Source: Schmidtea polychroa
Lineage: Eukaryota
Length of the DNA stretch: 64,000 nt
Direction: 5' to 3'
Assembly: GCA_044892525.1 (NCBI GenBank)
Contig: CM097885.1
Location: forward strand, 2,730,001 to 2,794,000
The notes under the pieces were generated by a model. That model worked only from the letters and a program-made list of their open reading frames with translations, did not search any database and was not told the DNA's origin. Positions 22,868 to 22,940 of this stretch are shown here, piece after piece (position 1 is the first letter of the stretch; every line of letters begins with the position of its first letter). Position numbers and translations under genes: made by a program.

Positions 22868-22940
22868 TAACCTCAGATGTGATTTGAACCACTATCCATT
22901 TGAACCACTGTGCCAGTCTAGCCCACTGCGCTATCAGGTT
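22868..22940 (-). ncRNA. tRNA-like Pol III unit 1, 73 nt, not a canonical tRNA
   Basis: Acceptor-like stem AACCTGA/TGAGGTT (6 of 7 pairs) plus discriminator A; A box TAGCGCAGTGG at position 8; B box GGTTCAAATC 32 nt later; T7 run 2 nt downstream. The anticodon arm does not pair. Confidence 0.6.

What the first reader, a model, noticed from the sequence alone, without database searches (positions are those of the whole stretch)
22868..22940. tRNA-like RNA polymerase III gene inside the Polinton end: candidate VA-like RNA
Seen (minus strand): AACCTGA-TAGCGCAGTGG-32 nt-GGTTCAAATC-ACATC-TGAGGTT-A, exactly 73 nt, then GA and T7. It has an acceptor-like stem, a correctly placed A box, a B box in a T-arm-like hairpin and a Pol III terminator. 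The anticodon arm is replaced by a duplicated AGTGGTTCAAAT and cannot decode. It is also in P2 (50971-51043), and with a 16-nt deletion in the right TIR (35857-35913). The TIR boundary lies about 20 bp upstream of it. Established: adenoviruses, relatives of Polintons, express Pol III VA RNAs that counter PKR and RNAi. I know of no such RNA described for Polintons. Inference: a silencing decoy, tRNA mimic or TFIIIC chromatin barrier.
Basis: partly seen in the sequence, partly recalled or inferred. Interest (0 to 1): 0.85.

Follow-up and report, generated by a model that had tools for sequence, protein, structure and literature searches.

The report
Truncated tRNA-gene cassette in Polinton ends
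A virus-like jumping gene (Polinton) that has multiplied to over a thousand copies in an animal genome carries, at the inner edge of each end, a cut-down copy of a host tRNA gene that keeps only the start and stop signals for RNA polymerase III, and these signals look preserved by selection although no transcript could be shown.

Summary
At 22868-22940(-) lies a 73-nt stretch with an A box at +8, two GGTTCAAAT B-box units and a T7 run. It recurs at 50971-51043(-), and as a one-unit 57-nt form at 35857-35913(+).

It sits about 20 nt inside the inner edge of both terminal repeats of a complete 14.8-kb Polinton (22001-36772, 6-bp target duplication). A flank-anchored pattern finds 2300 copies in the genome.

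It is not a tRNA: ARAGORN and Rfam find nothing, while a host tRNA-Trp control scores 67.8 bits. It has no stable fold (0 of 44 variants with z below -2), and its two "acceptor" arms do not co-vary.

Of five host tRNA genes tested, the best parent is an intron-containing type II, Leu(CAA)-like gene. The likeness includes that gene's T8 terminator.

Among 100 unselected copies, lineage-level variants avoid the boxes: 2 of 30 box columns against 25 of 52 other columns, while private mutations are about equally dense.

My reading: a tRNA-gene-derived Pol III/TFIIIC cassette kept for its DNA signals. A structured VA-like decoy RNA is not supported. Transcription is unproven. It is not a SINE: 91 of 91 sampled places lie in Polinton ends.

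The parts
22868..22940 (-). tRNA-gene-derived module, left terminal repeat of Polinton P1 (two-unit form, 73 nt)
   Evidence: no tRNA by ARAGORN or Rfam
22923..22933 (-). A box TAGCGCAGTGG, at +8 of the module
   Evidence: At lineage level only the R position varies among 100 copies
22905..22915 (-). Second A-box-like word TGGCACAGTGG, which overlaps the first B-box unit
   Evidence: Not constrained: shared variants at 3 of its columns
22898..22906 (-). First GGTTCAAAT unit (extra B box)
22881..22890 (-). Second unit, B box GGTTCAAATC, starting 43 nt after the A-box start
   Evidence: No shared variant in 10 columns
22859..22865 (-). T7 run, a Pol III terminator-like signal
   Evidence: T-run of 5-10 in 100 of 100 copies, 8 or 9 in 92
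22918..23166 (-). 82-aa ORF whose last codons and TAG stop overlap the module in this subfamily only
   Evidence: no Pfam family
35857..35913 (+). Module copy in the right terminal repeat of P1 (one-unit form, 57 nt; A box TAGCACAGTGG), followed by GA and T7 at 35916-35922
50971..51043 (-). Module copy in the left terminal repeat of the second Polinton, P2
   Evidence: 2 mismatches; a different predicted fold
22001..36772 (.). Polinton P1, 14,772 bp. Terminal repeats of about 0.95 kb begin AGTAGTGTG. The 6-bp target duplication AAAAAG lies at 21995-22000 and 36773-36778
   Evidence: Pfam hits: DJR capsid 23583-24527, rve integrase with PLA2-like domain 24557-25975, A32-like ATPase 26269-26778(-), protein-primed PolB 31396-32604 and 32736-35726(-)

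Best explanation
The element is a cut-down host tRNA gene carried in both terminal inverted repeats of a very abundant Polinton.

Origin. The most likely source is an intron-containing type II (Leu-CAA-like) tRNA gene, copied as DNA together with its own T-run terminator. The 3' half of the D arm, the anticodon arm, the intron and the variable arm were then lost. A 15-16-nt unit holding the T-loop (B box) was duplicated, which puts the downstream B box back at the tRNA-like distance of 43-44 nt from the A box.

Function. What remains is a type 2 Pol III promoter (A box and B box) plus a terminator around 60-90 nt of otherwise free-running sequence. In the lineages that kept multiplying, the boxes and the T-run were kept, while the former stems changed freely and without compensation. 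Selection therefore acts on the DNA signals, that is on recruitment of TFIIIC, TFIIIB and Pol III, and not on the shape of an RNA.

Most likely the cassette is occupied by the Pol III machinery at the inner edge of each repeat, bracketing the gene-bearing core. It probably gives a short, roughly 75-80-nt oligo-U-ended RNA of little structure. Its useful effect is more likely that of a tDNA-type boundary or roadblock, or of the act of transcription, than of the RNA.

Shown: anatomy, tRNA-gene descent, copy number, context, absence of fold and covariation, and the pattern of variation. Inferred: TFIIIC/Pol III binding, transcription, and any benefit to the element.
For: 1. Layout. Among 100 copies taken in genome order, the A box TRGCGCAGTGG is intact in 93, a B box is present in 99, and A box + B box + T-run of 4 or more in 92. 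The A-start to last-B-start distance is 43-44 nt in 91 of those 92.

2. Not chance. The A-box consensus occurs 6 times against 0.17 expected in the window, all within the three copies.

3. Descent from a tRNA gene. Of five host tRNA genes tested (Trp, Met, Gln, Gly, type II), the type II gene with its 3' flank aligns best to all 7 module variants tried: z 5.8-9.8, against at most 5.0 for the others. The alignment runs through the A box, AGACT, the T-loop, the T-stem 3' side, the acceptor 3' side and T8+CA.

4. Constraint on the boxes. In the 30 box columns there are 2 shared variants (seen in 3 or more copies) and 8 singletons. In the 52 other module columns there are 30 shared variants and 17 singletons (Fisher p=0.016). 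Columns with a shared variant number 2 of 30 against 25 of 52 (p=7.8e-5). Singletons per column are similar, 0.27 against 0.33. Both shared box variants keep the consensus.

5. The second A-like word, and the AGTGG of the last unit, do vary. So the constrained set is one A box plus the GGTTCAAAT units, not a thrice-repeated motif.

6. Distribution. The module is present in both repeats and in every subfamily seen. Some subfamilies carry two modules 233 nt apart in each repeat.

7. An RNA-level function is disfavoured.
Against: - No transcript or occupancy data. No listed sequencing run is on record as RNA, and the runs laid were contigs.
- The copies are young (the 40 scored matches are 96-100% alike) and related. 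The column counts are therefore not independent events; block changes inflate the non-box counts, and segmental duplications can make a private change look shared.
- Parts of the neighbouring repeat are equally invariant: the first 14 nt or so after the anchor, and ATAGTGTGGGTATC. Conservation of the boxes could therefore reflect some other function of the repeat.
- Only 5 host tRNA species were compared, so the parent is provisional. Part of the terminator likeness is low-complexity T-run.
- The one-unit form has an A-B distance of only 27 nt and still persists.
- Relatives in other organisms could not be examined at the equivalent place.
Confidence: 0.5

Rival explanations
1. Neutral relic. 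A fragment of a tRNA gene was captured once in the ancestral terminal repeat and is merely carried along. The boxes look conserved because the family is young, or because they overlap some unrelated repeat function.
For: The 40 scored matches are 96-100% alike. Stretches of neighbouring repeat are just as invariant. There is no fold and no covariation. No transcript is shown. The one-unit form and a copy with the A box deleted (L159) exist.
Against: Lineage-level variants are about 9-fold rarer per column in the boxes than in the rest of the module, while private mutations are equally dense. The two shared box variants keep the consensus. The A-B spacing is held at 43-44 nt in 91 of 92 copies.
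Confidence: 0.25
2. Protein-binding repeats unrelated to Pol III. The GGTTCAAAT units, and perhaps the A box, would be sites for an element-encoded or host DNA-binding protein, for example a packaging, replication or accessory integration signal, comparable in position to adenovirus packaging repeats just inside the ITR.
For: There are short direct repeats with a 15-18-nt period, with unit number varying from 1 to 3 and whole-module duplication in some subfamilies. The module lies in both repeats. The constraint is on DNA words and not on RNA pairing.
Against: The constrained words are exactly the two halves of a tRNA-type promoter at the tRNA spacing, followed by a T-run, and the whole aligns to a host tRNA gene with its terminator. 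The second A-like word is not constrained. The site lies about 870 nt from the tip, far from where integrases act (recalled knowledge).
Confidence: 0.15
3. A structured small RNA that acts as such: a VA-like decoy, a tRNA mimic, or a precursor of small regulatory RNAs.
For: The architecture is that of a Pol III gene. Precedents are adenovirus VA RNAs (recalled) and the MHV68 TMERs (PMC4337559, passages read). The commonest arm haplotype, 44 of 96 copies, can form a 6-bp terminal stem.
Against: No Rfam family matches at E up to 10. Fold z is 0.04 for the window copy and the median is 0.10 over 44 variants, with none below -2. There are 28 arm haplotypes that combine freely, and own partners pair no better than permuted ones. 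The P2 copy, 2 mismatches away, folds differently. One subfamily has lost the 3' arm altogether (L084, L094).
Confidence: 0.06
4. The head of a host tRNA-derived SINE that inserted into one Polinton subfamily; or simply the coding and 3' end of the 82-aa ORF.
For: In the window copy, 23 nt of the module are the end of ORF 22918-23166(-).
Against: The unanchored list has 91 places up to 24.66 Mb on contig C1. All 91 lie in Polinton end context: 72 also match the flank-anchored pattern (by my comparison of the lists), 7 were read, and the remaining 12 were fetched and read. The module is present in both repeats and in all subfamilies. The right-repeat copy follows no ORF. The ORF's stop lies before, within or beyond the A box depending on the subfamily.
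Confidence: 0.03

Closest known systems
tRNA genes carried by polinton-like viruses and virophages (PMC12220804, section 16, passages read)
   Same: Relatives of Polintons carry genes of tRNA type. That paper reports 558 tRNA matches in a scan of 8300 PLV/virophage genomes and discusses uptake from hosts.
   Different: Those are bona fide tRNAs found by Rfam and ARAGORN and are thought to serve decoding. This one fails both tools, has no anticodon arm, lies in both terminal repeats of an animal Polinton, and keeps only the promoter boxes and the terminator.
MHV68 (murine gammaherpesvirus 68) TMERs / viral tRNA-like RNAs (PMC4337559, abstract and introduction passages read)
   Same: Virus-borne, non-aminoacylated tRNA-like Pol III genes clustered at one genome end, using tRNA-type promoters.
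   Different: TMERs keep a tRNA-like fold and are joined to pre-miRNA hairpins. Here there is no conserved fold, no downstream hairpin, and the terminator follows at once.
Adenovirus VA RNA I/II (Rfam RF00102; properties recalled)
   Same: Internal A and B boxes, a T-run terminator, and carriage by a virus distantly related to Polintons.
   Different: VA RNAs are about 160 nt and highly structured, and they act through that structure. There is no Rfam match here and the fold is no better than shuffles.
tDNA insulators and extra-TFIIIC (ETC) sites of yeasts and mammals (recalled; a TFIIIC/SMC preprint appeared only in the listing)
   Same: B-box-bearing DNA whose effect comes from bound TFIIIC or Pol III and not from the RNA. 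Such sites work in pairs or clusters flanking a domain, as these modules flank the Polinton core.
   Different: Nothing is known of such a role in any Polinton. Binding was not tested. Those are host elements, not parts of a mobile element's repeat.
tRNA-derived SINE heads, and Cassandra TRIMs with a 5S-derived Pol III promoter in their LTRs (recalled; Cassandra also named in scan note e1-7785385)
   Same: A Pol III promoter of host-gene origin embedded in the terminal repeats of a mobile element.
   Different: In those, Pol III transcription produces the transposition intermediate. A 15-kb protein-primed DNA element cannot move through a 75-nt RNA, and all sampled copies lie inside Polinton ends.
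Pol III-type 131-nt hairpin just inside a Polinton end in a springtail-like genome (scan notes e1-7468399 and e1-7468532; AI notes, unchecked)
   Same: A tRNA-type promoter layout near the end of an animal Polinton.
   Different: That one is a strong hairpin and this one has no stable fold. No sequence likeness was found.

Membership tests
tRNA gene (Rfam RF00005 / ARAGORN) | Cloverleaf scoring at or above the family threshold (29 bits) | tested here: not met
   0 tRNAs in the window. No RF00005 match at E up to 10 in the window region or in 6 variant loci, while the host tRNA-Trp control scored 67.8 bits.
tRNA gene (Rfam RF00005 / ARAGORN) | Anticodon arm and closed D stem | tested here: not met
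   Read directly: GCGC is followed by GACT, not GCGC, and the anticodon arm is replaced by GGTTCAAAT units.
Type 2 (tRNA-type) Pol III transcription unit | A box TRGCNNAGTGG near +8 (consensus recalled) | tested here: met
   Window copy at 22923-22933. Intact TRGCGCAGTGG in 93 of 100 copies.
Type 2 (tRNA-type) Pol III transcription unit | B box GGTTCRANNC(C) about 30-60 nt downstream of the A box (consensus recalled) | tested here: met
   Present in 99 of 100 copies. Start-to-start distance 43-44 nt in 91 of 92 copies and 27 nt in the one-unit form.
Type 2 (tRNA-type) Pol III transcription unit | Run of four or more T shortly after the coding part | tested here: met
   T5-T10 in 100 of 100 copies.
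Type 2 (tRNA-type) Pol III transcription unit | Transcribed by Pol III and bound by TFIIIC | not testable with these tools
   No RNA holder was listed, and the laid runs were contigs.
Adenovirus VA RNA (RF00102) | Roughly 160-nt RNA with a conserved, stable stem structure | tested here: not met
   No Rfam match. Length 57-90 nt. Fold z 0.04 for the window copy; 0 of 44 variants below -2.
tRNA-derived SINE | Dispersed retroposed copies of head, body and tail, outside other elements | tested here: not met
   91 of 91 places in an unanchored list lie in Polinton end context.
MHV68 TMER-type viral tRNA-like gene | tRNA-like fold followed by pre-miRNA hairpins before the terminator | tested here: not met
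   No tRNA fold. The T-run follows 2-3 nt after the 3' arm.
tDNA / ETC-type TFIIIC boundary element | B box(es) bound by TFIIIC, flanking a chromatin domain | tested here: inconclusive
   The sequence requirement and the paired flanking position are met. Binding and boundary activity are not testable here.
Polinton / Maverick | Protein-primed PolB, rve integrase, DJR capsid, A32-type ATPase, long terminal repeats, 6-bp target duplication | tested here: met
   Pfam hits. Repeat arms of 778 nt at 98% complementarity, extending to about 0.95 kb. AAAAAG duplication. The protease was not identified by Pfam.

The most novel reading that the evidence does not exclude
Animal Polintons carry, as a standing part of both terminal repeats, a domesticated host tRNA-gene promoter. 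Its job would be to load TFIIIC and Pol III at the two inner repeat edges. That would give a built-in pair of tDNA-type boundaries or Pol II roadblocks shielding the viral genes from host silencing or read-through, which may have helped this family reach more than a thousand copies. Together with the Pol III-type hairpin noted in a springtail-like Polinton, Pol III cassettes would be a recurrent and so far undescribed accessory of this virus group.
Probability: 0.2. Interest if true: 0.85.

Novelty: new variant of a known kind. Interest (0 to 1): 0.58.

Why it matters
Viruses and mobile elements that borrow Pol III genes are known: VA RNAs, EBERs, TMERs, SINEs, and tRNAs in polinton-like viruses.

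In the papers I searched I found no Pol III cassette described for animal Polintons. I also found none that has shed the RNA's structure while keeping the promoter.

If the boxes are really occupied, this would be a natural case of a mobile element using the Pol III machinery at the DNA level. It would offer about 2300 near-identical natural reporters in one genome for testing how tDNA-like sites affect silencing of integrated viral DNA.

It also shows that standard tRNA and Rfam scans miss such cassettes.

Tried and rejected
- RNA evidence. The look-up of sequencing runs listed no holder on record as RNA. Read laying on 22001-25000 with X1, X3, X4 and X7 returned only contigs of runs whose kind is guessed, so nothing can be said on expression, ends or strand.
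- Pattern slip. I ran the two boxes separately instead.
- tRNA-Trp as parent (a lead from memory). The host Trp T-arm matches the CACGTC variant 17 of 18 with one gap, but overall Trp scores below the type II gene. My first Trp pattern found the type II arrays instead.
- tRNA-Met as parent of the 5' half. 19 of 22 match locally, but the whole-length score is low.
- Host tRNAs as donors of other 3'-block variants. AGGTTCAAATCCTAA has 4 genome matches and none lies in a tRNA. No host sequence combines TRGCGCAGTGG with a closing GCGC.
- Mis-set gap. It counted only the GGGAATAG variant (1118 matches), so it is not usable as a total.
- Other Polinton families in the genome. The capsid Pfam model gave 2527 first-look candidates; the 126 that were scored all fall at 85-97 bits, so they form one broad family. 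A tip-like AGTAGTGTGT at 63549 leads into a non-LTR retrotransposon and not into another Polinton.
- Other organisms. The integrase found nothing in viral contigs. A capsid alignment found nothing in viral contigs. It found 5 metagenome contigs of 6.7 kb or less, with 36-52% identity. None has a tRNA or an A/B-box pair. The longest has a different gene order and no terminal repeat. Conservation at the equivalent place is therefore untested.
- Window-subfamily copies. L001-L030 are 97-99% alike across the whole repeat and so say nothing about constraint.
- Not used: complex prediction, structure prediction and the atlas search, because no protein question was open.

Full report
**What is there**

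On the minus strand, 22940..22868 reads AACCTGA TAGCGCAGTGG GCTAGAC TGGCACAGTGG TTCAAAT GGAT AGTGG TTCAAAT CACATC TGAGGTT A. GA and T7 (22859-22865) follow. A second copy lies at 50971-51043(-) with 2 mismatches; none of 100 shuffles gave such a match. A 57-nt copy with a single GGTTCAAAT unit lies at 35857-35913(+).

The A-box consensus TRGCNNAGTGG occurs 6 times in the window against 0.17 expected. All 6 are in these three copies, two per copy. The B-box word GGTTCRANNC occurs 3 times against 1.77 expected, all in the copies. The observation and its coordinates are therefore correct.

**Context**

The element lies in a complete Polinton, P1, at 22001-36772.
- The repeat arms are 98% complementary over 778 nt and, with indels, extend to about 0.95 kb.
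- The tips begin AGTAGTGTG, and the 6-bp target duplication is AAAAAG.
- Pfam finds a double-jelly-roll capsid, an rve integrase with a PLA2-like domain, an A32-like ATPase and a protein-primed PolB.
- Left and right repeats become alike 19-20 nt upstream of the module.

The module therefore marks the inner edge of both repeats and points outward at both ends.

In the window's left copy, the first 23 nt are also the last codons and the TAG stop of an 82-aa ORF. In other subfamilies that ORF stops before the repeat (…ESII*) or runs further into the module. Coding therefore does not explain the A box.

**Abundance**

The window is part of a 781-Mb assembly.
- A pattern anchored only in the flanks (ATGACAAAAA, 70-100 nt, AACATAAAATAATATT) has 2300 matches and none in the control.
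- A pattern for one 3'-block type has 1856 matches.
- The capsid Pfam model gave 2527 first-look candidates. By my count, 112 of the 126 scored matches have no internal stop.

The family is very large and young.

**Not a tRNA, not a structured RNA**

- ARAGORN finds no tRNA in the window.
- Rfam finds nothing at gathering thresholds, nor at E up to 10 around the element or in six variant loci. A host tRNA-Trp in the same run scored 67.8 bits.
- The window copy folds at -16.4 kcal/mol against -16.5 ± 3.1 for shuffles (z 0.04). The P2 copy, two mismatches away, takes another fold.
- Of 44 distinct variants from 97 copies, none has z below -2; the median is 0.10.

**An unselected sample of copies**

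I fetched all of the first 100 places in the list, covering contig C1 from 0 to 24.7 Mb.
- The A box TRGCGCAGTGG is intact in 93 and a B box is present in 99. A box, B box and a T-run of 4 or more occur together in 92.
- The A-start to last-B-start distance is 43 or 44 nt in 91 of those 92.
- The T-run is 5-10 long, and 8 or 9 in 92 copies.
- 95 copies hold two GGTTCAAA units and 5 hold one (2 true one-unit copies, the rest with one unit mutated). Three-unit copies occur outside the pattern's length range: L052, L152, L153.
- Some subfamilies carry two whole modules 233 nt apart in each repeat.

**Pattern of variation**

I separated variants seen in 3 or more copies, which arose in propagating lineages, from singletons, which reflect decay after insertion.

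| Region | Columns | Shared variants | Singletons | Columns with a shared variant |
|---|---|---|---|---|
| A box + two B-box units | 30 | 2 | 8 | 2 |
| Rest of the module | 52 | 30 | 17 | 25 |

- Fisher p is 0.016 for shared against singleton variants, and 7.8e-5 for columns with a shared variant.
- Singletons per column are similar, 0.27 against 0.33. The boxes therefore mutate like their surroundings, but such mutants are rare among lineage-level variants.
- The two shared box variants are the R of TRGC and an extra A at the end of the first unit. Both keep the consensus.
- The second A-like word (TGGCACAGTGG) and the AGTGG of the last unit do vary.

Caveats:
- The copies are related, and block changes count as several columns.
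- Segmental duplication can make a private change look shared.
- Some neighbouring repeat stretches are equally invariant, while others carry shared indels.

**No covariation**

The 5' arm has 17 forms and the 3' arm has 13, combined into 28 haplotypes among 96 copies. The mean duplex energy of own partners is -4.08 kcal/mol, against -4.11 ± 0.17 for permuted partners; 56% of permutations do at least as well. One subfamily (L084, L094) has lost the GGTT of the 3' arm altogether. The stems are remnants and are not maintained.

**Origin**

The host keeps huge tandem arrays of tRNA genes. I took Trp, Met, Gln, Gly and an intron-containing 97-nt type II gene from them.

With free end gaps and cheap long gaps, the type II gene plus its 3' flank is the best match for all 7 module variants tried: z 5.8-9.8, with the others at most 5.0. 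The alignment keeps these parts:
- GATRGC..AGTGG (the A box)
- AGACT
- GGC..GTGGTTCAAAT
- C(C)CAC
- TCTGA
- T8 followed by CA

It drops 8 nt of the D arm and 41 nt comprising the anticodon loop, the intron and the variable arm. That the likeness runs into the gene's terminator argues for capture of a gene as DNA. I read this gene as Leu(CAA) from its anticodon loop and from memory of yeast tRNA-Leu(CAA); ARAGORN left it unnamed. Only five host tRNA species were compared, so the parent is provisional.

**Not a SINE**

The unanchored list has 91 places up to 24.66 Mb on C1.
- By my comparison of the two lists, 72 also match the flank-anchored pattern.
- 7 had been read earlier and are in repeat context.
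- The remaining 12 were fetched, and all have Polinton left-type or right-type sequence upstream. Two of them are truncated downstream.

**Interpretation**

The constrained parts are exactly what a tRNA-type Pol III promoter and terminator need, at the right spacing. Everything an RNA would need for a shape is free to change. I therefore favour a DNA-level role through TFIIIC, TFIIIB and Pol III, with a short unstructured transcript as a likely by-product.

Among such roles, a tDNA-type boundary or roadblock at the two inner repeat edges is plausible but inferred. A neutral relic and a non-Pol III binding-site array remain serious rivals. The VA-like structured-decoy reading is not supported.

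**Literature**

- Searches for Polinton or Maverick together with tRNA-like, Pol III, VA RNA or B box found no description of such a cassette (listings only).
- PMC12220804 (section 16, passages read) reports bona fide tRNA genes in polinton-like viruses and virophages. tRNA carriage by the wider group is therefore known.
- PMC4337559 (abstract and introduction passages) describes the MHV68 TMERs.
- The properties of VA RNAs, tDNA insulators, SINEs and Cassandra elements are recalled.
- Two earlier scan notes describe a Pol III-type hairpin inside a Polinton end in another animal genome. I did not test them.

**What stays open**

- Transcription and occupancy.
- The parent tRNA.
- Whether Polintons of other species have such cassettes at the same place. 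The contigs I could reach do not cover a terminal repeat.

Noticed in passing
G000:C4:55.02-55.05 Mb (L078); G000:C2:87.77-87.99 Mb (L079); L034-L037 (C85, C152): Very large tandem arrays of tRNA genes. tRNA-Trp repeats every 284 bp (about 850 pattern matches). tRNA-Met(CAT) repeats every 241 bp (737 matches). A 734-bp unit holds Gln(CTG), Gly(GCC) and an intron-containing type II tRNA.
   Followed up: partly
window 20941-22005 and beyond 36779: P1 is inserted in the reverse-transcriptase ORF of an LTR-type retrotransposon (YLDD motif). The ORF is cut at the AAAAAG target duplication.
   Followed up: partly
window 22400-22703 (and its mirror in the right repeat): This part of the terminal repeat has far higher summed contig depth in run X1 than the rest. 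It is the only part of the repeat held by X3, and the only part of the laid stretch held by X4 (another organism label). Likeness ends sharply at 22703. It holds overlapping 80-aa and 82-aa ORFs on opposite strands. It may be a separate repeat or a more widely shared piece of the repeat.
   Followed up: no
L056-L061 (e.g. G000:C1:7969127-7969475 and 7982216-7982564): Some subfamilies have two modules 233 nt apart in each terminal repeat, with different 5' arms and spacers.
   Followed up: partly
window 63255-63620 and L163: The right end of P2 is disrupted. After the PolB start come T-rich low-complexity DNA and short GCCAAGCTGTCGAC-like tandem repeats. A repeat-tip-like AGTAGTGTGT follows at 63549, and then a non-LTR retrotransposon RT on the minus strand beyond the window.
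   Followed up: partly
window 24557-25975 and 32736-35726: The integrase carries a parvovirus-type PLA2-like domain (PF08398, 38.9 bits). The PolB ORF begins with a C2H2 zinc finger (zf-met, 26.2 bits). PolB is split into two ORFs in this copy.
   Followed up: no
window 4617-5300: A long array of about 16-nt tandem repeats in a stretch of 16% G+C.
   Followed up: no
genome-wide: By my count, 112 of the 126 scored capsid-gene matches have no internal stop, with open frames of about 431 aa. This indicates very recent amplification of the family.
   Followed up: no
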